A stretch of 32,428 bases of DNA, from contig JAGGUE010000057.1 in the NCBI GenBank assembly GCA_021158665.1, positions 1-32,428 on the forward strand, written 5' to 3'. The position numbers were made by a program, and so were the translations under genes. Below are positions 9,292 through 32,428 of this stretch, piece after piece (position 1 is the first letter of the stretch; each line of letters begins with the position of its first letter). The DNA comes from Candidatus Aenigmatarchaeota archaeon (GTDB taxonomy: Archaea > Aenigmatarchaeota > Aenigmatarchaeia > GW2011-AR5 > JAHLMP01). The notes beneath the pieces are model-generated. The model worked only from the letters and a program-made list of their open reading frames with translations, was not told the DNA's origin and made no database searches.

Positions 9292-10389
9292 TTATATAAT
9301 TTTCACCGCTTCCAGTATTTTTTCGGCTTCCGCTCTCGTAATGTTTATTTCGTTTAAGACCGTATATCTTTCCCTGACTCGTTTTGCGTTTACCAGGGCA
9401 TCTATTAAAATATCTTCTTTTATTCCTATCTCTTTTGAATTCGTCGGCAACCCGAGCCTTATCATCATGTCCCTGACTTTTTGCCATACATCGCCACGCA
9501 AATCGCGAACCGGCGTTGGTCCGTTCCGTTTCTCGCCTTCAGTAGTCTTGCACGCCTTTCGTTGACCTTGCAAATAAGTCATGACAATAGTCCCAAGCGC
9601 GCACTGCTCGCCGTGCAGGGCATTTGCGCCGAGCGAGTCGAGTGCGTGGGAAAAGTTGTGTTCGCTTCCGGAGCATGGCCTGGAAGAGCCGTATATGTTC
9701 ATTGCAAAACCGGAGCATATCAAACTCCAGAGCAAAATTTCCAGGCCGTGATAATTCTTTTCTCTTATGTCATCTATATGGTTTATCACTCCCCTGCTTG
9801 ACAACAACGCCAACTCCGCCATTAATGTATGATACTTTTCCTTTCCCTTCTCTGCCGCGAGTTTCCAGTCCTCCACCGCCGAGATATTGGAAATCAGATC
9901 TCCGGCTCCGGACGCTATCAGTCTGTAAGGCGCCTTTTTTATCGTGTCCAAATCGCCTATTATTGCTATCGGCTCTGTTGCATCGACAGAAGTCCTGAAC
10001 CCGTTTGAAGTTATGCTCGCGCGCGAAGAGACGACGCCGTCATGGGACAACGCCGTCGGAAATGCTATCCACGGCTTTTTCGCCAGAAACGACGAATACT
10101 TTGCCACGTCAATGCTCCTCCCGCCGCCGAGCCCGATCGTGAAATCAAATTGTTTTATTTTTTCCGACAATCGTTCCAGATATTTTTTTTCTATTGATTC
10201 CGGCTTTATGATTTCCACGTCAAATGAGTTTGAAAGAATATCTTTGATTTTAAAACCGATCACCCTTCCGACGTTTTCATTGCAAATCATCGCAATTTTT
10301 TTGCCGAGTCTCATTTCTTTTAATAAGGCTTCTATCTCACCCTCCACCGACCTCTCGATCAGAATTTTATATGGGAAGTTTATTATCAT
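9292..10389 (-). CDS. egsA: glycerol-1-phosphate dehydrogenase [NAD(P)+]
   Basis: 365 aa with the iron-ADH/DHQS-like fold motifs GLGGGRSIDVAKY, PTALSHDG and SGSEHNFSHALD, which match G1PDH. There is an apparent insertion of about 20 aa (RKACKTTEGEKRNGPTPVRDLR) before the C-terminal helices. Confidence 0.75.
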   Translation of the reverse strand: MIINFPYKILIERSVEGEIEALLKEMRLGKKIAMICNENVGRVIGFKIKDILSNSFDVEIIKPESIEKKYLERLSEKIKQFDFTIGLGGGRSIDVAKYSSFLAKKPWIAFPTALSHDGVVSSRASITSNGFRTSVDATEPIAIIGDLDTIKKAPYRLIASGAGDLISNISAVEDWKLAAEKGKEKYHTLMAELALLSSRGVINHIDDIREKNYHGLEILLWSLICSGFAMNIYGSSRPCSGSEHNFSHALDSLGANALHGEQCALGTIVMTYLQGQRKACKTTEGEKRNGPTPVRDLRGDVWQKVRDMMIRLGLPTNSKEIGIKEDILIDALVNAKRVRERYTVLNEINITRAEAEKILEAVKII

Positions 10390-24119: not shown

Positions 24120-25532
24120 ATGGAAGATAAAGGGATGGGAACGACAACCGCGATTCAGATTTTGAAATCTGCGATTGGAAATCCCGTTGCGAGAGAGTTG
24201 ATTTCTTCGGTTTCCAATTGGTGCGAGAAAGACCAAAAGAATAGACTGGAGGTTGCACTGGAATTGTGGGCCGAACAAAGGAAGGACGCCTGCTGGAAAT
24301 GCAAAGCGGCTGAAAAAGGATTGGCTAAAATCCTTAAATTTGGGGGAAAGGCATTTGGAGTTTCTGAGGAAGAAATGCGAAAAAAATTCAGTGACCATTC
24401 GTGGAGGAAGGGACTGGCAAATGTTTTGCGAGGAATAGCCAAATTCGGAATTCAGCGCCCGTTCGTTCCGGGTGCCCCGTTTTTGATTGTGTGGGACATT
24501 ACCTATGCCTGCAATTTGAAATGTAAGCATTGCTATGCCACGGCTGGAAAATCGTTGCCGAACGAACTCACCACCGAAGAAGCGAAAAAAGCGATAGATA
24601 AGTTGGATAAAGCCGGGGTGCCGATAATCGCTTTTTCTGGAGGGGAGCCTTTGGTCAGGCCGGACATATTCGAATTATCCAGATATGCGGCAGATAAAGG
24701 AATTTACGTTGCAATGGCTACAAACGGGACTTTGATAACGAAAGAAATGGCTGAAAAAATGAAAGAAGCGGGAATGCAATTCGTTCAAATCTCTTTAGAT
24801 GGCGCAGACGCAAAAACCCATGACGGATTTAGGGGCGTTACAGGAGCGTTTGAGAGAACAATTAAAGGGATAAAAAACTGCGTGGAACGGGATTTTTTTG
24901 TAAATATTTCGACAACGGTCACGCATTACAATTACGGGCAAATTCCAAAAATAATAGACCTTTGCGAGGAATTGGGAGTGAATTGGTTCATGGCATATAA
25001 TTTTGTTCCGGTTGGAAGGGGTGACTTCATCAAAAAAAGCGACTTGACTCCGGAAGAAAGAGAAGAACTGCTGAAGATGTTGTGGGAAAAATTGAAGAGC
25101 AACAAGGTTAATGTTTTAACGACGGCTCCGCAATTCTCCAGGGTCGCCCTGCAAAGAGAATTTGGAGACGAGAAGATTGTTCCAACGCACTTTTATACGC
25201 TAAAACTGAAGGGGAAACTAATAAATTTGGCAGAGTTCATTGGCGGATGCGGCGCAGGGAGATTCTACTGCGCGATAAGGCCGCAGGGAAATATAGAGCC
25301 GTGCGTGTTCTTTCCTTTGACTGTCGGGAACATTAAAAATGACGATTTTGAAGAGTTGTGGAACAACAATAAAATTTTCAAGGACTTGAGAAATAAAGAT
25401 TTGTTGAAGCCGAACTGCGGAAAATGCGATTATCGCTATTACTGCGGGGGCTGCAGGGCAAGAGCTTACAATTACTTTGGAGACTACTTGGCTCCTGACC
25501 CCGGCTGCATAAAAAACAAGGTGAAAAAATGA
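24120..25532 (+). CDS. radical SAM protein with C-terminal SPASM domain and an approximately 110-aa N-terminal extension
   Basis: The CNLKCKHC (CxxxCxxC) cluster motif and the SPASM cysteines (CGAGRFYCAIRPQGNIEPCVF ... CGKCDYRYYCGGCRARAY) are present. The N-terminal helical extension carries a CWKC pair. The ATG at 24120 lies 7 nt after GGTGA; the track start at 24114 is a TTG. Confidence 0.85.
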   Translation: MEDKGMGTTTAIQILKSAIGNPVARELISSVSNWCEKDQKNRLEVALELWAEQRKDACWKCKAAEKGLAKILKFGGKAFGVSEEEMRKKFSDHSWRKGLANVLRGIAKFGIQRPFVPGAPFLIVWDITYACNLKCKHCYATAGKSLPNELTTEEAKKAIDKLDKAGVPIIAFSGGEPLVRPDIFELSRYAADKGIYVAMATNGTLITKEMAEKMKEAGMQFVQISLDGADAKTHDGFRGVTGAFERTIKGIKNCVERDFFVNISTTVTHYNYGQIPKIIDLCEELGVNWFMAYNFVPVGRGDFIKKSDLTPEEREELLKMLWEKLKSNKVNVLTTAPQFSRVALQREFGDEKIVPTHFYTLKLKGKLINLAEFIGGCGAGRFYCAIRPQGNIEPCVFFPLTVGNIKNDDFEELWNNNKIFKDLRNKDLLKPNCGKCDYRYYCGGCRARAYNYFGDYLAPDPGCIKNKVKK

Positions 25533-25626
25533 GGTATAAATTTTTAAGCGGCGGTTATCGCCCGCTTTTCTGGACATGGCCTGTATGGTATTATTTACTT
25601 ATACGACTGGTGGAAAGGTGGTTAAA

Positions 25627-27465
25627 ATGTCATTCAGAAGAGTTTTATTGGTAAAACCAAAGGGAAGGAAAGGCTTGGGCTTTTCATCAGATGTAATTCC
25701 TATAAGCTTGGAGTATATCGCAGCATCAATAGAAAAAGAAGTTGATAAAGTTTGGATAATTGATATGGAATTTGAAAGGCGTCCGTTCCAACACTTTCTC
25801 GACACACTTCATCCGGATTTGGTTGGAATTACAATGTCGGCAACGGATCATAATGAAGGTTTGCGTCTTGCTAAAATCGCCAAAGATAATGGCATTATGA
25901 CCGTATTGGGCGGTTATCATCCAACTGCTATACCAGACGAATTGCTTTCATATCCACAAATTGATATCATTGTTAGAGGTGAGGGGGAACTCACAATGAA
26001 AGAATTTGTAAAAAAAGGTTCGCCTGAAAATATTCTCGGAGTTTCATTCAAAAGCGGCGGGAAAATAATTCACAACCCTGACCGACCATTGATAGAAGAT
26101 TTGGATTCCCTGCCTTTTCCGGCAAGACATCTCAGAAGACACAAATACAAAGACCATATGAACAACAATGGCAAAGAATTGGATGTGATTACAATGTCAC
26201 GCGGTTGCTGGGGAAGATGTAGTTTTTGTTGCGAACCTTACATGAGCAAGAGCCGAATGCGATTTAGGTCACCTGAAAACATAATGAAAGAATTGTTCGA
26301 AATCGTATCTTTTCATAAAGGAAAACCGCTGCAAATTCTTGTAACAGACCCGCATTTCATGGGCGATCCTAAGAGAATAGATCGATTATGTGATTTGTTG
26401 CAAAAACATAAATTAGATATAACATTTTCTGTTATGACAAGAGTTGACAGCATTGTTAGATATCCCGAACTCGTCAAGAAAATGTGCGATAGCGGCATTC
26501 TTAGTTATGAGTTGGGCTTTGAAAGCCCAAATCAGAAAGATTTGAATAATGTTAAGAAAGGTATAACTCTCGGGATGCAGGAAAAAGCTGTGAAAATATT
26601 AAGGGATAATTGTGCGAACGTCTCCGGGACTTTTGTTATTGGTTTACCCGGTCAAAGCGAAGAGGAGATAAAGCAATTTCCATCATATGCCAAAAAAATT
26701 GGTCTGATGAACTGCGCATTTGGTATTGCAACTCCATTTCCTGGGACAGAATTTTATGAAAAGTTGGAGAAAAATAATCTAATCTTTGAGCGTGATTGGA
26801 CAAAATATGATGAGATGCACTCCGTGTTTAAGTTAAATCCTTTGAGTTCGGATAAACTGGAAGAATTAGAAAGTTATTGCATGGCAAGATTTTGGACATT
26901 GAATACCCTGCTGGACAGGAACGGGGTTTCACAAAAAAGGACTGGCAAAAAATTATCGTTAAAAGATTTCATATATGAGATGATCGCAAAAGTGAAATTT
27001 GCCAGAAATGCTGGTTATGATTTGAGGGGCGGTAAAATAAAAAAACACGCTAAGGTTGTTTTACATGCGATCAAAGATGCTGAAATAGAAGAAAATGAAA
27101 GAAAAATATTCATGCATGACATTATAGAAATGTCGAGATTTTTAAAGATTTTAGGGTCGCAAATCATACAAATCACTTTGATATGTGACGGTCAAAAAGT
27201 GAGTTATATTATAAAAACTACGAGCAAAAATGTGGAATATGTAAAAACTATTTCTGGAAAGCAGAGCGATGCAACTATAGATATTGATATTGATTTGGGC
27301 GAGATTATTGATTCGTTTAATGGTTATTCGCCACTTAACCTATTGAATTATATCTCTTTATTGAAACGTGCACGGAATATTAAAGGTGTTTTGAATGTGC
27401 TTAGATTGTGTTTTGCGTTGACAACTGATTTGACTTTTTCTTATCTGGAAAATAAACTGGTGTGA
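25627..27465 (+). CDS. class B (cobalamin-binding domain) radical SAM enzyme with an SCP2-like C-terminal extension
   Basis: The N-terminal B12-binding-type Rossmann segment (RVLLVKPKG...VGITMSATDH...VLGGYHPT) and the cluster motif CWGRCSFC are present. About 170 aa extra at the C-terminus fit the SCP2 sterol-carrier pattern. The start at 25627 follows AAGGTGG. Confidence 0.8.
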   Translation: MSFRRVLLVKPKGRKGLGFSSDVIPISLEYIAASIEKEVDKVWIIDMEFERRPFQHFLDTLHPDLVGITMSATDHNEGLRLAKIAKDNGIMTVLGGYHPTAIPDELLSYPQIDIIVRGEGELTMKEFVKKGSPENILGVSFKSGGKIIHNPDRPLIEDLDSLPFPARHLRRHKYKDHMNNNGKELDVITMSRGCWGRCSFCCEPYMSKSRMRFRSPENIMKELFEIVSFHKGKPLQILVTDPHFMGDPKRIDRLCDLLQKHKLDITFSVMTRVDSIVRYPELVKKMCDSGILSYELGFESPNQKDLNNVKKGITLGMQEKAVKILRDNCANVSGTFVIGLPGQSEEEIKQFPSYAKKIGLMNCAFGIATPFPGTEFYEKLEKNNLIFERDWTKYDEMHSVFKLNPLSSDKLEELESYCMARFWTLNTLLDRNGVSQKRTGKKLSLKDFIYEMIAKVKFARNAGYDLRGGKIKKHAKVVLHAIKDAEIEENERKIFMHDIIEMSRFLKILGSQIIQITLICDGQKVSYIIKTTSKNVEYVKTISGKQSDATIDIDIDLGEIIDSFNGYSPLNLLNYISLLKRARNIKGVLNVLRLCFALTTDLTFSYLENKLV

Positions 27466-27471
27466 TTTAAA

Positions 27472-28494
27472 ATGGTGTTTTATAAGATTTGGCGAATCTG
27501 GAGGACATACGGTCTTATGCGGAAACTATCTTCTATAAATGGTTCAAATGCAAGCAAAACATTGTTGGACCGTGTCATGTACAAATTTGAGAGTTTGCCG
27601 CCTTTAGGAAAGGAATACTGGTGGTTTCTTTTCTTTGGCAGAAACGGAAAAAGACCGGTGCAACTTATGTTGCTTATCTTCAGAAAGCATGGAAAGAAAA
27701 TGTTATTTAATGATAAAGAAATGGTACTTAGAGAAGTGGAGAAAAATAAACTCCGGGCCGTTACTAGCGGTTGGATATATGACGGAAAAAAACTCTGTAA
27801 CTTGGGGGATACAAATGCTATTGTAGAAATTCCGGGCAAAAAGATTGTTTCCGAGATTTCTGGTCAAAAAATGACGCTTGGCGGAGGTTTTCCAAATTAT
27901 GAATTGACTGTTGGAAATTTGATTAATTTGAAAATAACAAAGGGGGATTGTCTTGAAGACAATGCCGCAAGTGGCGTATTTTTGCCACCATTTGGTATGT
28001 CGTGGATCGATATTTTTTCAAGCGTTGAAGGTATTGTACTAGGAAAAAAATTTAAAGGAACTGGACACTTGCAGAAAGTTTTTGGGGTTACGATATTCGG
28101 ACCGTTTCATTGGGGAAGACTTGTTTTTCAAAACGGTTCTTCAACTTCATTTTTCTGCCTTAAAACAGGCAGAAATTCAAAAACATATTTTCGCAGATCT
28201 TTAATCTTTCACGACATTGAAAATAAGAGAATTATCAGATTTGATAATCCAAAATTGGAAATATTAAAAATGGGAAATAACTGGATTGTTGAGGGTAGCG
28301 ACATCGACAAAACTCTTAAAATGGTTCTGGAAACTTATGCAACAAAGCGATATGTTATGAAAGGTGGCGGTTCGCAGGTTTACATTGAATACGCGGTTAT
28401 ACCCAAAGAATTCAAGCTGAGAACCAAAGACAAAATAATTACCTTAGATGACACGGGCAAGGGGGTCGGAACTTTGGAAGATGCATATTGGTAA
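27472..28494 (+). CDS. hypothetical beta-rich protein, possibly CrtC/AttH-like
   Basis: 340 aa, 6 nt downstream of the B12-rSAM gene. The motif GKEYWWFLFFGRNGKRPVQLMLLIF resembles the EWWY..G....Q.tffr signature of CrtC/AttH-like lipocalin-fold proteins. This is weak and based on motif memory only. Confidence 0.55.
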   Translation: MVFYKIWRIWRTYGLMRKLSSINGSNASKTLLDRVMYKFESLPPLGKEYWWFLFFGRNGKRPVQLMLLIFRKHGKKMLFNDKEMVLREVEKNKLRAVTSGWIYDGKKLCNLGDTNAIVEIPGKKIVSEISGQKMTLGGGFPNYELTVGNLINLKITKGDCLEDNAASGVFLPPFGMSWIDIFSSVEGIVLGKKFKGTGHLQKVFGVTIFGPFHWGRLVFQNGSSTSFFCLKTGRNSKTYFRRSLIFHDIENKRIIRFDNPKLEILKMGNNWIVEGSDIDKTLKMVLETYATKRYVMKGGGSQVYIEYAVIPKEFKLRTKDKIITLDDTGKGVGTLEDAYW

Positions 28495-28495
28495 T

Positions 28496-28876
28496 CTAAA
28501 AAAACATAGCTTTCCTCTCCAAGGTTTTAGTGATTTCTTCTAAAATTTTCTGTATTTTATTTCTAACATTTTTCCATGCTTCCCGAATCGGAACGGCATT
28601 ATAAATATACTTAAGCCTTTTTCCCTGCTCAACTCTTTTATTTATGAATTCTTCTTGTTCCAGTCTTTTAATATATTTTCGTATTGTTCGCTCTGAAAGG
28701 TTTAGTTGCTTTTCCATCTGTTTTATGGTCAACGAAGATTTCAATAAGATGTTGTAAATTTTAATTTCTATTGGTTTGAAGTTGAGAAATCCAAGTATAA
28801 CATTTAATAGTTCTATTGGTTTTTTTCTTCCTTTAAGTATCCTTTCTATATCCACAATGTAGTTTCTTTTAGCCAT
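28496..28876 (-). CDS. winged-helix transcriptional regulator (TrmB/MarR-like)
   Basis: The HTH region is IKIYNILLKSSLTIKQMEKQLNLSERTIRKYIKRLEQEEFINKR. I chose the Met at 28876 (MAKRNY). The track start at 28972 would add an AT-rich, unlikely leader. Confidence 0.6.
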   Translation of the reverse strand: MAKRNYIVDIERILKGRKKPIELLNVILGFLNFKPIEIKIYNILLKSSLTIKQMEKQLNLSERTIRKYIKRLEQEEFINKRVEQGKRLKYIYNAVPIREAWKNVRNKIQKILEEITKTLERKAMFF

Positions 28877-28989
28877 GATTATTGATATGAACATAATGAT
28901 ATATAAATTTTCATACGTATGAACCATCTTATAGAAACAACGCGACATATAGCATTTATAGAATTTGCGCATTTCTGCCTAAAATATTT

Positions 28990-30159
28990 TCATTTTCTAA
29001 AATAATTCCTAAAAACAATGAACAAAACAACCGAAATAATGCTAACTGCCGCGCCATAGACAAAGGGCATGCTTGAATTAATTTGCCATAGAAACCCTGC
29101 TATTAAACTTGCCGGCAGCGCCATTAAACCCATTGCGGTATGAAATGTTCCCAATGCCGTAGCCCTCAATTCTTCCGAAGACAAATCAGAAACATAAGCC
29201 CTTTGATTACCGTCCACTATGGCATAAACTATGCCGTAAAGAGCGAATAAAACTATAAAAGCCGTCAATGAGTTGAAAAATGCAAATCCAAGGGAGGTTA
29301 ACGAAAATAGTAGATAACCAAAGGTGATAACTTTTTTCCTCCCTATTTTATCGGAGAGTTCACCGAAGGGAACAGCAAACACGGCATAGAAAGCATTGAA
29401 GAGAATATACAAAAGGATTGGCGCCCCAACCGATAATTTACCCGTAAAGAGCTCTTGCGCTCTGAGGATAAAAAACATATAACTGAAATTTGCCAAAGCA
29501 AATATCCCAGAAACCAAGATAAATAATTTAAGCGGTCGTGAAAGAGTTTTCAAACCGATTTTTAAATTTATATCCTGCGGTTCTCTTTTTCTCTCCTTTA
29601 CAAAATATAAAGGAATTAAAGAAAGAAACGCTAAAATTGCTGCTATGAATATAATTGACTTGAAATTATATCCGAAAAACCAAATCAAAAGAAAAACAAT
29701 AATCGACCCTCCAATTGCTCCTGAAGTATCCATTGCCCTATGAATTCCGAACCCCTTGCCTTTCTCTTTGGGCATAGAATCTGCAATAATGGCATCCCGG
29801 GCTGCCGTCCTCAACCCTTTGCCAATCCGTTCCAAACCAGCGAAAATTAAAACATGTTGCCATATTTTAGAAAACGCCAAAAATAATTTGAAAAGTGCTG
29901 AAGTCAGATAGCCGGAGAAAACAAAAATTTTCCTTTTTCCAGATTTATCTGACCAATAACCTGCAAAAACTTTTAGAATACTTGAAATACTGTCTCTCAA
30001 TCCCCCAATCAATCCAACAACTAAACCAGCACCGCCTAATGCTGTAATGAACATTGGCAAAATCGGCATTATCATCTCACTGCTCAAATCATTCAGAAAA
30101 CTGACAATGCCCAGTAAAAGTATATTTACCTTAGCTCCCATTAGATATTTACTATTCAT
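28990..30159 (-). CDS. MFS transporter
   Basis: 389 aa with about 12 TM segments. The loop 2-3 motif GYWSDKSGKRK and the second-half motif GELSDKIGRKK are typical of MFS. Confidence 0.85.
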   Translation of the reverse strand: MNSKYLMGAKVNILLLGIVSFLNDLSSEMIMPILPMFITALGGAGLVVGLIGGLRDSISSILKVFAGYWSDKSGKRKIFVFSGYLTSALFKLFLAFSKIWQHVLIFAGLERIGKGLRTAARDAIIADSMPKEKGKGFGIHRAMDTSGAIGGSIIVFLLIWFFGYNFKSIIFIAAILAFLSLIPLYFVKERKREPQDINLKIGLKTLSRPLKLFILVSGIFALANFSYMFFILRAQELFTGKLSVGAPILLYILFNAFYAVFAVPFGELSDKIGRKKVITFGYLLFSLTSLGFAFFNSLTAFIVLFALYGIVYAIVDGNQRAYVSDLSSEELRATALGTFHTAMGLMALPASLIAGFLWQINSSMPFVYGAAVSIISVVLFIVFRNYFRK

Positions 30160-30164
30160 AATTA

Positions 30165-31889
30165 TTACTCTTCACGGTTATTTTTTAGTTTTTGTTTAAA
30201 TTTCTCATTAATAACTAATACGGAAGGTACTACGGTAATCGCTGCAATAAAGCAAAACAAAACACCAAAAGACATCATATTTCCCAAATCTGCTAACAAG
30301 GTCAGTTGCCCTAAAGACATGGCTCTGAAACCTATCAAAGCTGCCAATGTTGTTATAAGCATCGGTACAAATACCTTTGAAAGTGTTATTTTCATCGCTT
30401 TTTCTATTTTATGTTTTTTTATTTCCTGTCTGAATCTGTTTACAACCTGAATTCCGAAATCTATTCCTATGCCCATAATCATTGACATGCCGCCGGACAT
30501 CGTGGGGTTTATGTATATTCCAAATAAACCCAAGGCTCCGTAAACCCATATCATTCCAAATCCGATTGCAAGCAAAGAAATTATACCATATCTCAAAGAA
30601 AGGAAAAGCAAACACACGACTATAAAAATCCCTATTAAAGAAAACATTGAAGTCGTCTGCATAGTTGGCATGATCTGGTTTTTCAACTCTTCAGATACTA
30701 TCGGATCTCCGGTTAGCCCGATATTCAATCCAGCGGGTTTTTCTGTCTCGCCGATTATATGTTTAAGTTCATCAATAAAATCATCCTTTTTTTCTTCATT
30801 CATTTCTGCCAAGTTTATTCTTATAGTACTTGTTGTACAATCATCGCTTACATAGTATTTGAACCGGTTTAATTTCACCGGTTCATCATTCTTCTCTTCA
30901 CCTTCATACAACTCCAGATATTTGCTGATGTCATCTAAACCAGAACTTATTCCAGAAACACCCTCTTTCATGTTGGAAGTGAGATTTTCGAGCAACAAAC
31001 TTGCATTTTTCATTTTTTCAAGTCCGGAAGAGATATTTTCAAGAGCATTTGCCATTCCATTTAACGATATTGATAATTGTTGCATCCCTTCCCGCGCTTC
31101 CGTTGTTTGAGCAATCATTGTATTCAGACCCTGCTTTAGTCCTTCCAAATAACCAATTATTTCCATTTTTTCAGATTCTGTAGCATTTGATTGCTGCACT
31201 AATGTTTCTGTTTGGTTAATTAGAGAAACAGTCTGAATTATCTTGCTTAAATCCTGTTCCTGATTCATACCTTCTGCTATTGAGGAAAGAGCATATTGGA
31301 TTTGCTTCAAAGCAAACGATGAACCATTCAGGCCATAAGTTATACCATCTATAATTTGCCCCTCCGCTGTCATACCTTCTTCTATGCCTTCCAATCCTTC
31401 AGAGAATTGAGATAGCGTTCCCGGCAGATTCAAAGAAGATTTATTTATGACAATTTCTTTATTCATGAGTTCAATGATTTTTGATTTTGTTTTCGGCAAA
31501 TGTCCAGAGTTCATCTCCTTCAGAATATCAGAAACCCCTGTTATAGAAGAGATACCTTGCATTTTTCTTATTTTTTGTTCTAAAATATCAAGATACTCAA
31601 TAACTTCTGGGTTTCGAATGTCTCTTACCTCGTTGGAATTTGCGTATTTCGGATTTATTTCAGCAATAATCATTACCGATTCTCCCGAAGTCCCGAATTC
31701 ATCACCAATATAATAGATTGCATTTATCTCATCTATATTCTTAGGAACCATATCTCTATACGACATGCTTTCCGTTTTACTAAAACTCACTCCCACAAAT
31801 GAAATCAGGGTAAATACTATTACGACTCCAAAAATTATCTGAGGTTTTTTTGCCACGAATCCAGCATACCTTTCAATTGTTTTTTTCAT
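30165..31889 (-). CDS. half-size MMPL/RND-superfamily exporter with a large coiled-coil extracytoplasmic loop
   Basis: 574 aa: one N-terminal TM, a loop of about 380 aa rich in helical repeats (GLEGIEEGM.., GLKQGLNTM.., SGLEKMKN.., GVSGISSGLDD), then 5 TM with an MMPL-like pattern. Confidence 0.75.
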   Translation of the reverse strand: MKKTIERYAGFVAKKPQIIFGVVIVFTLISFVGVSFSKTESMSYRDMVPKNIDEINAIYYIGDEFGTSGESVMIIAEINPKYANSNEVRDIRNPEVIEYLDILEQKIRKMQGISSITGVSDILKEMNSGHLPKTKSKIIELMNKEIVINKSSLNLPGTLSQFSEGLEGIEEGMTAEGQIIDGITYGLNGSSFALKQIQYALSSIAEGMNQEQDLSKIIQTVSLINQTETLVQQSNATESEKMEIIGYLEGLKQGLNTMIAQTTEAREGMQQLSISLNGMANALENISSGLEKMKNASLLLENLTSNMKEGVSGISSGLDDISKYLELYEGEEKNDEPVKLNRFKYYVSDDCTTSTIRINLAEMNEEKKDDFIDELKHIIGETEKPAGLNIGLTGDPIVSEELKNQIMPTMQTTSMFSLIGIFIVVCLLFLSLRYGIISLLAIGFGMIWVYGALGLFGIYINPTMSGGMSMIMGIGIDFGIQVVNRFRQEIKKHKIEKAMKITLSKVFVPMLITTLAALIGFRAMSLGQLTLLADLGNMMSFGVLFCFIAAITVVPSVLVINEKFKQKLKNNREE

Positions 31890-32428
31890 GCTTCAAACCT
31901 CTTCCAAGAAAATTTAATTCAAGTTTTTCTACTTTTTCAATAAATCTTTCCTCAAGCAATATAAGAGCTGGAGATATGACTATAGTCGCGAATAAAATGC
32001 AGAAAATTCCCAGAGCAAGAGTTTCCCCAAGATGCTGAATCATCGGCATGGAGGATGTCAATAAGGCAAGAAAACCAACTACGGTAGTTGTTCCAGAACC
32101 CACAATCCCCGAACCAACAGAAGGTAATGCCAAAATTAATGCTTCTCTTTGATTTTTACCTTTTTCTCTTTCTTCCTCATATCTTTCCACCAAGAAAATT
32201 CCATATTCTGTACCCAACCCCAAAATCATCGCTCCTATGCCAACCGTTGCTACTGACAATGGAATGTTAAACCACCCCATAAGCCCAAAGGTCCATGTAA
32301 GACCTAAAATCAAAGGGGTGAAGACGAGAATACCTCTTGTAATAGATCTTTTTATTAAAATAAGCAATAACAAAATTATAATTGCTGCAATACCAGATGT
32401 AAAAACCATGTCATGTTCAAGCATATTC
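31873..32428 (-). CDS. half-size MMPL/RND-superfamily exporter, N-terminally truncated by the window edge
   Basis: The TM bundle has GIGAMILGLGTEYGIFLVERYEEE (MMPL/SSD-like). The frame stays open to the window end. Its 3' end overlaps the next MMPL gene by 17 nt. Confidence 0.7.
   Translation of the reverse strand, partial: NMLEHDMVFTSGIAAIIILLLLILIKRSITRGILVFTPLILGLTWTFGLMGWFNIPLSVATVGIGAMILGLGTEYGIFLVERYEEEREKGKNQREALILALPSVGSGIVGSGTTTVVGFLALLTSSMPMIQHLGETLALGIFCILFATIVISPALILLEERFIEKVEKLELNFLGRGLKHEKNN

What the first reader, a model, noticed from the sequence alone, without database searches (positions are those of the whole stretch)
24120..28494. Three-gene radical-SAM cluster, a candidate membrane-lipid tailoring system
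Three co-directional, tightly spaced genes make up the cluster, with gaps of about 94 and 6 nt. (1) A SPASM radical SAM enzyme has an unusual approximately 110-aa N-terminal extension carrying a CxxC pair. That is a general architecture reminiscent of the archaeal tetraether synthase (Tes/GDGT-MAS) rather than of short AhbD/NirJ-type proteins. (2) A cobalamin-type radical SAM enzyme is fused to an SCP2-like lipid-carrier domain. (3) An uncharacterised beta-rich protein carries an EWWY-like motif. The cluster is flanked by a convergent wHTH regulator, an MFS transporter and two MMPL-type (lipid/large-substrate) exporter halves, and the window also encodes G1P dehydrogenase. The family assignments of genes 1 and 3 rest on motif memory only. 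A RiPP-type or cofactor-maturation role is an alternative, although I found no obvious short precursor ORF.
Basis: inference. Interest (0 to 1): 0.62.

Follow-up and report, generated by a model that had tools for sequence, protein, structure and literature searches.

The report
Tetraether lipid-tailoring genes: Gms, Ted, Hgs
The three genes are close relatives of three recently characterised archaeal enzymes that cross-link, desaturate and hydroxylate membrane-spanning tetraether lipids, so this is a known system; what is new is that it sits in a tiny DPANN archaeon, with all three genes side by side.

Summary
The three genes are real and lie at the stated coordinates.

- **Gene 1** is an AhbD-like SPASM radical SAM enzyme with a roughly 120-aa N-terminal domain. 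That is the defining architecture of GMGT synthase (Gms; PMC11214058, PMC11186832). It is not Tes. The genome's real Tes lies on another contig.
- **Gene 2** (true start 25627) is 78% identical, without gaps, to DRO69_02625. This is the experimentally characterised B12-radical-SAM tetraether desaturase Ted of Ca. Bathyarchaeota B1_G15 (bioRxiv 10.1101/2025.10.20.683597).
- **Gene 3** is 71% identical to the adjacent B1_G15 gene DRO69_02630. That gene is the B1_G15 counterpart of the tested AttH-like hydratase Hgs (hydroxy-GDGT synthase). The gene 3 model has an AttH fold (top hit 2ICH).
- **The convergent TrmB-like regulator** is 75% identical to the one in B1_G15.

The lipid-tailoring reading is therefore right. 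The Tes analogy is wrong, and the SCP2-like tail has only weak support.

The conserved unit is ted-hgs-regulator, seen across many archaeal phyla. The gms linkage is local to this lineage. The gms|ted spacer holds different cassettes in close relatives.

This is a new member of known families. The DPANN host, the three-way combination and the modular island are modest additions.

The parts
24120..25532 (+). gms: GMGT synthase homologue. It has an AhbD-like radical SAM/SPASM core (residues about 121-470) and an N-terminal domain of about 120 aa. Alternative starts are TTG 24114 and ATG 24135 (the 465-aa product that gene callers give).
   Evidence: Pfam Radical_SAM and SPASM. AhbD scores 341.6 bits, below the 500-bit cut-off. 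Full-length matches (query residues 4-469, 41-47% identity, E 1e-112 to 1e-133) to Thermococci proteins that carry the same N-terminal domain, some followed by a Gmm-like B12 radical SAM gene. Architecture as published in PMC11214058 and PMC11186832. A GGTGA ribosome-binding site lies 6 nt before ATG 24120.
25533..25626 (+). gms|ted spacer. It contains a small GC hairpin followed by a T-run (25550-25562 plus CGCTTTTCTG) and an AAGGTGG ribosome-binding site before ATG 25627. It is the junction of two modules and a place where close relatives carry different cassettes.
   Evidence: Sequence and terminator-like hit. Nucleotide homology to relatives that lack ted stops at 25534. Homology to ted-hgs blocks of other phyla starts at 25614-25621. 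The 96-97% identical relative L129 carries 2.3 kb of extra genes between window positions 25519 and 25619.
25627..27465 (+). ted: B12-binding radical SAM tetraether desaturase homologue (612 aa). In numbering of the 629-aa maximal ORF: B12-binding domain 38-144, radical SAM core 206-368 with CX3CX2C at 211-218, C-terminal tail 448-629.
   Evidence: 78% identity over 612 aa with no gaps to L115:6080-7924, which is DRO69_02625, the Ted of Ca. Bathyarchaeota B1_G15. It lies inside the Hgs-linked clade (100/100 support) and apart from Gms-linked Gmm-like proteins, which are 31-32% identical. Pfam domains.
26917..27465 (+). C-terminal tail of Ted, possibly an SCP2-like lipid-binding domain.
   Evidence: Conserved in all Ted-clade proteins. 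No Pfam hit at E up to 10. AlphaFold2 model pLDDT 61. Best Foldseek hits are SCP2-type proteins: TT1886 at E 9e-3, UbiJ-SCP2 at 1.3e-2, TM-scores 0.3-0.4. The result is inconclusive.
27472..28494 (+). hgs: AttH-like hydratase, a hydroxy-GDGT synthase homologue (340 aa).
   Evidence: 71% identity to P0281, which is RLI46640.1 / DRO69_02630, the gene next to Ted in B1_G15. AlphaFold2 model pLDDT 89. Foldseek top hit is 2ICH, a putative AttH, at E 1e-8, followed by the Fsa2/CghA fold. A 73%-identical ANME-1 relative is named 'AttH domain-containing protein' by UniRef. Residues T12, Y13 and L15 are invariant, which supports the 27472 start over the 325-aa gene call.
28496..28972 (-). Convergent TrmB/Lrs14-like winged-helix regulator. 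The likely start is M33, giving 126 aa (28496-28876).
   Evidence: Pfam TrmB. 75% identity to the convergent regulator next to hgs in B1_G15. Present directly downstream of hgs at 56-89% identity in at least 17 loci from several phyla.
28990..30159 (-). MFS transporter. It is a neighbour, and its role in the system is unproven.
   Evidence: MFS_1 152.6 bits. Conserved in position in the DPANN relatives L019, L129 and L132.
30165..32428 (-). Two MMPL/HAE3-type RND transporter ORFs (30165-31889, and 31873 to the window end, where it is cut). They are neighbours, and their role is unproven.
   Evidence: MMPL 95.9 and 98.3 bits; HAE3 TIGR00921 182.5 bits. Homologous MMPL genes lie beside the ted/hgs/regulator block in the ANME-1 and Hadesarchaea loci L022, L023, L049, L052 and L074.

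Best explanation
The region holds two lipid-tailoring modules for glycerol dibiphytanyl glycerol tetraethers (GDGTs) placed back to back.

Module 1 is gms. Its product is a SPASM radical SAM enzyme. [quoted passage not shown]

Module 2 is ted-hgs with a convergent TrmB-like regulator. Ted is a B12-binding radical SAM enzyme that anaerobically removes two hydrogens from a saturated chain, leaving a double bond at a tertiary carbon. Hgs is an AttH/CrtC-type hydratase that adds water across that bond to give a tertiary alcohol (OH-GDGT or 2OH-GDGT).

The substrate GDGT can be made by the genome's own Tes.

Shown here: orthology to the characterised proteins, domain and fold content, conserved gene linkage, and the presence of Tes, GGGP synthase and geranylgeranyl reductase homologues in the genome.

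Inferred: that the enzymes have the same activities in this organism, that the three act on one lipid pool, and that the regulator and the transporters belong to the same response.
For: Gene 2 is 78% identical over 612 aa, ungapped, to DRO69_02625, the Ted tested in M. acetivorans.

Gene 3 is 71% identical to DRO69_02630, the AttH-like gene overlapping ted in B1_G15. Its model (pLDDT 89) has 2ICH, a putative AttH, as top Foldseek hit at E 1e-8.

The regulator is 75% identical to the B1_G15 one.

Nucleotide-level colinearity over ted-hgs-regulator: 75.7% to B1_G15 over 3329 nt and 81% to a Hadesarchaea MAG over 2992 nt.

A ted homologue lies directly upstream of an hgs homologue in 29 loci (Bathyarchaeia, Methanofastidiosum, ANME-1, Hadesarchaea, Methanomethylicus, Methanoregula, Aenigmatarchaeota). 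Gene 2 falls inside that clade with 100/100 support, apart from Gmm-like proteins.

Gene 1: AhbD is the best profile but scores below its cut-off (341.6 vs 500 bits). Full-length matches that include the N-terminal domain reach E 1e-112 to 1e-133 against Thermococci proteins. Short paralogues of about 400 aa align only from residue 121 onwards. Some of the Thermococci genes are followed by a B12 radical SAM gene, like gms-gmm in T. guaymasensis. The published Gms architecture and the paper's count of 39 DPANN homologues agree.

Substrate supply: Tes NF045702 745.8 bits against a 450-bit cut-off, and 7TOL E 2e-152; GGGP synthase; two geranylgeranyl reductase family genes.

Tes or Grs-like genes neighbour hgs homologues in many other loci.
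Against: No activity was measured for these proteins.

The Hgs that was tested came from a Guaymas Basin metagenome scaffold, not from B1_G15. Its identity to gene 3 is therefore known only indirectly.

I could not obtain a named sequence of an experimentally verified Gms. The tree separates proteins with the N-terminal domain from the short paralogues only weakly (65/53).

The CxxC pair of the N-terminal domain is not conserved in the Thermococci proteins.

A hairpin with a T-run lies between gms and ted, and gms is not linked to ted-hgs outside this lineage. The three genes may therefore not be one operon.

A UbiA-type DGGGP synthase was not found in this 87%-complete genome.
Confidence: 0.87

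Rival explanations
1. The enzymes work as described, but mainly on tetraether lipids taken from a host cell rather than on self-made lipids. DPANN archaea are usually host-dependent, and the adjacent MMPL/HAE3 and MFS transporters would then move lipids.
For: The genome is only 738 kb and DPANN-like. No UbiA-type DGGGP synthase was found. MMPL/HAE3 genes sit beside the cluster here and in ANME-1 and Hadesarchaea loci. The preprint argues that Ted and Hgs remodel existing lipids.
Against: The genome encodes Tes, GGGP synthase, geranylgeranyl reductase homologues and a glycerol-1-phosphate dehydrogenase-like gene. An earlier, unchecked note reports a mevalonate operon. The UbiA gap may simply reflect 87% completeness.
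Confidence: 0.15
2. Gene 2 is a lipid methylase of the Gmm/Cgm/Pgm type that acts on the GMGT made by gene 1, as in the gms-gmm pairs of Thermococcales. On this reading it is not a desaturase.
For: It lies directly downstream of gms, the position gmm holds in T. guaymasensis. Ted and Gmm are homologous B12 radical SAM enzymes.
Against: Gene 2 is only 31-32% identical to the Gms-linked B12 radical SAM proteins of Thermococci, against 78% to the characterised Ted. The two clades separate with 100/100 support. Gmm-like proteins are 460-530 aa and lack the C-terminal tail. The adjacency to gms is a recent, local junction.
Confidence: 0.04
3. Gene 1 is a tetrapyrrole enzyme of the AhbD/NirJ type (heme b or heme d1 pathway) and only happens to lie next to the lipid genes.
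For: The best NCBIfam profiles are AhbD (341.6 bits) and NirJ2 (314.3 bits).
Against: Both scores are well below the curated cut-offs of 500 bits. The 120-aa N-terminal domain is absent from the AhbD-type short paralogues and is shared with the Gms-type proteins of Thermococci. Both published studies derive Gms from exactly this AhbD-like subgroup.
Confidence: 0.03
4. The cluster matures a RiPP peptide or a cofactor.
For: SPASM and B12 radical SAM enzymes are common in RiPP clusters, and weak profile hits to such maturases exist.
Against: All such hits fall far below their cut-offs. Genes 2 and 3 have close orthology to lipid enzymes with measured activity. Related loci contain Tes and Grs-like genes, not precursor peptides.
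Confidence: 0.01

Closest known systems
Tetraether desaturase Ted (DRO69_02625, Ca. Bathyarchaeota B1_G15; bioRxiv 10.1101/2025.10.20.683597)
   Same: 78% identity over the whole 612 aa. Same B12-binding, radical SAM and C-terminal tail architecture. Same position directly upstream of the AttH-like gene, with the same convergent TrmB-like regulator.
   Different: A 6-nt gap to hgs instead of an 8-nt overlap. No grs gene upstream in this window; gms sits there instead. The host is a DPANN archaeon, a group the preprint's text does not mention (0 occurrences).
Hydroxy-GDGT synthase Hgs (AttH-like hydratase; tested protein from a Guaymas Basin scaffold, B1_G15 counterpart DRO69_02630)
   Same: 71% identity to DRO69_02630, AttH-like fold, gene order ted then hgs.
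   Different: The sequence of the tested protein itself was not available. Relatives of this DPANN lineage keep hgs without ted and pair it with a distant AttH paralogue.
GMGT synthase Gms (T. guaymasensis X802_RS00105, P. furiosus PF0647, M. okinawensis METOK_RS04425; PMC11214058, PMC11186832)
   Same: AhbD-like radical SAM plus SPASM core preceded by an N-terminal domain of about 100-120 aa. Length over 420 aa. 41-47% identity over the full length to the Thermococci proteins of this type.
   Different: Followed here by ted, not by the methylase gmm. The C37 and CxxC cysteines of the N-terminal domain are lineage-specific.
GMGT methylase Gmm and the GDGT methylases Cgm and Pgm (B12 radical SAM)
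   Same: Same superfamily and domain order as gene 2. Often found next to gms and next to MFS or HAE3 transporters and wHTH regulators.
   Different: Only 31-32% identical to gene 2, shorter (460-530 aa), a separate clade, and a different reaction.
Tetraether synthase Tes / GDGT-MAS (MJ0619, PDB 7TOL)
   Same: A radical SAM lipid enzyme with an N-terminal extension. It supplies the substrate for this system.
   Different: Gene 1 matches it only over the radical SAM core (66.8 bits). The genome's real Tes is a different gene on contig C4.
AttH / CrtC / kievitone hydratase fold (PDB 2ICH; Diels-Alderases Fsa2 and CghA share it)
   Same: Double beta-barrel fold. The Foldseek top hit is 2ICH at E 1e-8.
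   Different: Sequence identity is about 12%, and no Pfam AttH or CrtC model detects gene 3 or 19 relatives.

Membership tests
Ted (tetraether desaturase) | B12-binding domain plus radical SAM core with CX3CX2C; at least 500 aa | tested here: met
   PF02310 63 bits and PF04055 66.8 bits. CWGRCSFC at residues 211-218. 612 aa.
Ted (tetraether desaturase) | Close homology to the characterised DRO69_02625 (the paper's search threshold was E 1e-100) | tested here: met
   78% identity, 996 bits, E 0.0, no gaps. The identity of locus L115 rests on the locus tag DRO69_02630 of its neighbour gene.
Ted (tetraether desaturase) | Separate from the Gmm methylase clade | tested here: met
   100/100 split in the tree. 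31-32% identity to Gms-linked B12 radical SAM proteins. The Gmm references were defined by gene context in unnamed Thermococci genomes.
Ted (tetraether desaturase) | Desaturation of GDGT chains | not testable with these tools
   Needs heterologous expression and LC-MS.
Hgs (hydroxy-GDGT synthase) | AttH-like fold | tested here: met
   Model pLDDT 89.3. Foldseek: 2ICH at E 1e-8, probability 1.00, TM-score 0.48-0.50.
Hgs (hydroxy-GDGT synthase) | Homology to the ted-linked AttH-like protein (paper threshold E 1e-80, at least 300 aa) and position directly downstream of ted | tested here: met
   71% identity, 496 bits, to DRO69_02630. 6-nt gap after ted.
Hgs (hydroxy-GDGT synthase) | Hydration of Ted-made double bonds | not testable with these tools
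   Needs co-expression and lipidomics.
Gms (GMGT synthase) | Radical SAM core plus SPASM domain with two auxiliary clusters | tested here: met
   PF04055 113.3 bits and PF13186 38.7 bits. Cysteines at 379, 386, 397, 435, 438, 444, 447 and 465.
Gms (GMGT synthase) | N-terminal domain of about 100 aa (COG4001) that is absent from AhbD | tested here: met
   Residues 1-120 align with the N-terminal domains of full-length Thermococci homologues; the conserved block is RKGL..VLrGIAkfG. The 400-aa paralogues lack this domain. The COG4001 model itself was not available.
Gms (GMGT synthase) | Clade with verified Gms, separate from AhbD | tested here: inconclusive
   E 1e-112 to 1e-133 to Thermococci proteins whose names are hidden. 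The split from short paralogues has only 65/53 support. The AhbD equivalog cut-off is not reached.
Tes / GDGT-MAS | Full-length match to NF045702 or to 7TOL | tested here: not met
   Gene 1 scores 66.8 bits on 7TOL, core only, and Tes is not among its 25 best NCBIfam profiles. The C4 gene scores 745.8 bits.
AhbD / NirJ | Score above the curated equivalog cut-off | tested here: not met
   341.6 vs 500 bits for AhbD; 314.3 vs 500 for NirJ2; 242.2 vs 515 for NirJ.
SCP2 domain (tail of gene 2) | SCP2 sequence profile or SCP2 fold | tested here: inconclusive
   No PF02036 hit in 19 tails at E up to 10. The low-confidence model (pLDDT 61) has SCP2-type proteins as its best Foldseek hits, at E 0.009-0.1.

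The most novel reading that the evidence does not exclude
The locus is a modular, horizontally exchanged tetraether-tailoring island. Cassettes (gms; a Grs-like gene plus a GT2 glycosyltransferase; ted; a second AttH paralogue) are swapped at one spacer between close DPANN strains. The ted-hgs-regulator block moves between archaeal phyla. With gms, ted and hgs together the cell would make hydroxylated or unsaturated GMGTs, a lipid class that no paper in the searched library mentions. It might do so on lipids obtained from a host, with the conserved TrmB-like regulator and the MMPL/HAE3 pair forming one membrane-stress response.
Probability: 0.3. Interest if true: 0.6.

Novelty: new member of a known kind. 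Interest (0 to 1): 0.36.

Why it matters
Hydroxy-GDGTs, unsaturated GDGTs and GMGTs are used as environmental and palaeoclimate biomarkers, so it matters which organisms can make them. This locus adds small-genome DPANN archaea (Aenigmatarchaeota and, among the related loci, Iainarchaeota, Parvarchaeota and Micrarchaeota) to the possible sources of OH-GDGTs. It shows that the ted-hgs pair travels with a dedicated regulator. It also offers a natural set of strain variants (with ted, without ted, with an extra Grs-like gene plus GT2) for testing how the modifications combine. For annotation, it shows that 'hypothetical protein' and 'AhbD-like radical SAM' labels hide known lipid enzymes.

Tried and rejected
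- **Tes identity for gene 1:** rejected.
- **AhbD/NirJ membership:** rejected, below the cut-offs.
- **Pfam and NCBIfam on gene 3 and 19 relatives:** nothing found, even at E up to 10. The PDB sequence search also found nothing. Only the fold search worked.
- **Pfam on the Ted tails:** no SCP2 hit.
- **Supplementary tables of the Gms paper:** not held, so I could not check the Aenigmatarchaeota accessions RLI99486.1, RLJ08486.1 and RLJ05276.1 against its Gms list.
- **Named verified Gms sequences:** not obtainable. Thermococci genomes reached through the genome search carry no names. One complete 1.92-Mb genome has gms at 16.8 kb followed by a Gmm-like gene. This would fit the low locus-tag numbers X802_RS00105 and X802_RS00110, but that is only a guess.
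- **RiPP reading:** rejected, because of orthology to lipid enzymes and because related loci show no precursor-like conservation.
- **Sigma-70 promoter scan:** not informative for an archaeon.

Full report
**Observation**

The window is contig C50 of a 738-kb archaeal genome that is 87% complete. Proteins at 90% identity or more to gene 1 are deposited as Candidatus Aenigmatarchaeota. This agrees with earlier notes of this scan that call the genome a DPANN archaeon.

Three co-directional ORFs occupy 24114/24120-25532, 25576-27465 and 27472-28494.

- Gene 1 has Radical_SAM (113 bits) and SPASM (38.7 bits) domains from residue 129 onwards, with CX3CX2C at 133-140. The 120 residues before the core match no profile. 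They contain C37 and a C60-x-x-C63 pair.
- Gene 2 has a B12-binding domain (63 bits) and a radical SAM core (66.8 bits), followed by about 180 further residues.
- Gene 3 has no Pfam, NCBIfam or PDB sequence match.

Downstream, on the other strand, lie a TrmB-like winged-helix regulator, an MFS transporter and two MMPL/HAE3 ORFs.

**Gene 3 led to the answer**

Its family is strongly conserved: 249 clusters, 57-60% identity in Bathyarchaeota and Methanofastidiosum, and 67 invariant columns among 20 sequences. In a Methanofastidiosum contig and a Bathyarchaeota contig it follows a B12 radical SAM gene that is 62-65% identical to gene 2. In both it is followed by a convergent TrmB-like gene, and there is no gene 1.

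A literature search found a preprint (bioRxiv 10.1101/2025.10.20.683597) that describes exactly this pair.

- A B12 radical SAM enzyme from Ca. Bathyarchaeota B1_G15 (locus tag DRO69_02625) introduces one to four hydrogenation-sensitive double bonds into GDGTs when expressed in M. acetivorans. It was named tetraether desaturase, Ted.
- The overlapping downstream AttH-like gene, tested from a closely related Guaymas Basin scaffold, makes OH-GDGT and 2OH-GDGT when co-expressed with Ted in T. kodakarensis. It was named hydroxy-GDGT synthase, Hgs.

**Direct link to the characterised genes**

One 90%-identity cluster of gene 3 relatives contains RLI46640.1, 'hypothetical protein DRO69_02630'. Its contig, GCA_003662715.1 QMYO01000027.1, carries in order:

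- a 568-aa radical SAM gene (the grs of the preprint),
- a 614-aa B12 radical SAM gene (by position DRO69_02625),
- the 344-aa protein,
- a convergent TrmB-like gene.

Gene 2 is 78% identical to that 614-aa protein over 612 residues without a gap, starting at its M18. Gene 3 is 71% identical to DRO69_02630. The regulator is 75% identical from its M33.

At the DNA level, window 25614-28923 aligns with the B1_G15 contig at 75.7%. Window 25621-28609 aligns with a Hadesarchaea MAG at 81%.

**Fold of gene 3**

An AlphaFold2 model built on the family alignment has pLDDT 89.3. Its best PDB match is 2ICH, a putative AttH, at E 1e-8, followed by the Fsa2 and CghA proteins that share this fold. UniRef names a 73%-identical ANME-1 relative 'AttH domain-containing protein'. 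Sequence profiles do not see this relationship.

**Ted or the methylase Gmm?**

Gene 2 sits after gene 1, the place gmm holds in T. guaymasensis. In the class Thermococci, genes like gene 1 are in some genomes followed by a B12 radical SAM gene of 460-530 aa. That gene is only 31-32% identical to gene 2, which is the same distance the preprint reports between Ted and Gmm.

In a maximum-likelihood tree, gene 2 lies within the 28 Hgs-linked proteins. A 100/100 branch separates them from the Gms-linked ones. Its nearest relatives are from Hadesarchaea and ANME-1, not from the other Aenigmatarchaeota in the tree.

**Gene 1**

Its best curated profiles are AhbD (341.6 bits, cut-off 500) and NirJ2 (314.3 bits, cut-off 500). 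GDGT-MAS (7TOL) matches only the radical SAM core (66.8 bits).

Two papers describe GMGT synthase (Gms) as just such an AhbD-like SPASM enzyme with an added N-terminal domain of about 100 aa (COG4001; six helices) that is thought to hold the lipid. Both report homologues in DPANN (PMC11214058; PMC11186832).

Gene 1 relatives at 66-70% identity cover 98% of its length in Thermoplasmatota, Hydrothermarchaeota and Methanomassiliicoccales. In 64 of 121 Thermococci genomes there is a match. The full-length matches (residues 4-469, 41-47% identity, E 1e-112 to 1e-133) carry the N-terminal domain. A second set of proteins of about 400 aa aligns only from residue 121.

The N-terminal alignment shows shared blocks, but the CxxC pair is not conserved. 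Tree support for separating the two sets is weak (65/53), and I had no named verified Gms sequence. Membership therefore rests on architecture, scores and gene context.

**Substrate supply**

The genome has a real Tes on contig C4: NF045702 at 745.8 bits against a cut-off of 450, and 7TOL at E 2e-152 over the full length. It also has a GGGP synthase and two geranylgeranyl reductase family genes. The window carries a glycerol-1-phosphate dehydrogenase-like gene.

A UbiA-type prenyltransferase was not found, which may reflect incompleteness. No Grs-like gene was found. A second B12 radical SAM gene of unknown role lies on C12.

**Linkage**

The ted-hgs pair is found in 29 of the fetched loci. 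The convergent regulator is found in at least 17, across Bathyarchaeia, Methanofastidiosia, ANME-1, Hadesarchaea, Methanomethylicus, Methanoregula and DPANN lineages. Tes or Grs-like genes are frequent neighbours.

By contrast, gms is next to hgs only in this DPANN lineage. There the content between gms and hgs varies.

- The window and contigs from several samples, 99.4% identical in nucleotides, have gms|ted-hgs.
- Relatives at 96-97% identity carry an extra Grs-like radical SAM gene and a GT2 glycosyltransferase between window positions 25519 and 25619.
- Relatives at 85-88% identity have a distant AttH paralogue in place of ted. No Ted-type gene was found in either genome searched (G149, G186); G149 has only a 32%-identical B12 radical SAM gene on another contig.

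The spacer also holds a hairpin with a T-run. The three genes are thus two modules joined at a variable spacer, not a conserved three-gene operon.

**The tail of Ted**

The last 180 residues or so are conserved in the whole clade and have no Pfam match. A model of the tail alone is of low confidence (pLDDT 61). Its best Foldseek hits are nevertheless SCP2-type proteins: TT1886, UbiJ-SCP2, AF1534 and T. thermophilus SCP2, at E 0.009-0.1 and TM-scores 0.3-0.4.

**Neighbours**

The preprint reports that lipid methylase genes often sit beside MFS and HAE3 transporters and wHTH regulators, and it links methylation to amphiphile stress. The same kinds of neighbours flank ted-hgs here and in ANME-1 and Hadesarchaea loci. 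The preprint's text does not mention a TrmB-like regulator, DPANN or SCP2.

**Verdict**

Genes 2 and 3 are orthologues of Ted and Hgs. Gene 1 is very probably a Gms. The finding is a new member of known families.

What goes beyond the literature I could read is the DPANN host, the side-by-side gms-ted-hgs arrangement, the cassette variation at one spacer, and the conserved regulator. That arrangement predicts hydroxylated or unsaturated GMGTs, which no paper in the searched library mentions.

Noticed in passing
window 25519-25619; L129:4794-6978; L019:5590-6672: The gms|ted spacer differs between close relatives. Strains at 96-97% identity carry a Grs-like 490-aa radical SAM gene plus a GT2 glycosyltransferase there. 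Relatives at 85-88% identity carry a distant AttH paralogue (23% identity to gene 3) instead of ted.
   Followed up: partly
L053:8424-12162; L056:367-6685; L058; L059: Tandem pairs of an hgs homologue and the second AttH paralogue occur without ted in other archaeal MAGs. In L053 and L056 they lie next to Tes. This may be a ted-independent route to hydroxylated lipids.
   Followed up: no
window 28496-28972 (-); L115:8956-9336: A TrmB/Lrs14-like regulator is the convergent neighbour of hgs at 56-89% identity in at least 17 loci from several phyla. The Ted/Hgs preprint's text does not mention it.
   Followed up: partly
window 30165-32428 (-); L022, L023, L049, L052, L074: A split MMPL/HAE3 transporter pair sits beside the ted/hgs/regulator block in this DPANN lineage and, at 40-46% identity, in ANME-1 and Hadesarchaea loci.
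   Followed up: no
G000:C12:279-1634 (L107): The genome holds a second B12-binding radical SAM gene (451 aa; weak HpnJ/BchE-like hits; 32-35% identity to gene 2). It sits on a very long branch and its role is unknown.
   Followed up: partly
G000 whole genome: Tes, GGGP synthase and two geranylgeranyl reductase family genes are present. No UbiA-type prenyltransferase (DGGGP synthase) was found in this 87%-complete genome.
   Followed up: partly
L031, L048, L058: hgs homologues lie on contigs of MAGs labelled Parcubacteria, Saccharibacteria and Chloroflexota. These are probably archaeal contigs binned wrongly, or else transfers to bacteria.
   Followed up: no
window 9292-10389 (-): The glycerol-1-phosphate dehydrogenase-like protein matches NF002022 in two stretches and scores 342 bits, below the 413-bit cut-off. 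This suggests an insertion or divergence near the C-terminus.
   Followed up: no
tallies: None of the five genomes of the window's own family that were searched has a gene 3 homologue. The closest copies (85% identity) are in another family of the same class, so the cluster is patchy and was probably transferred among DPANN lineages.
   Followed up: no
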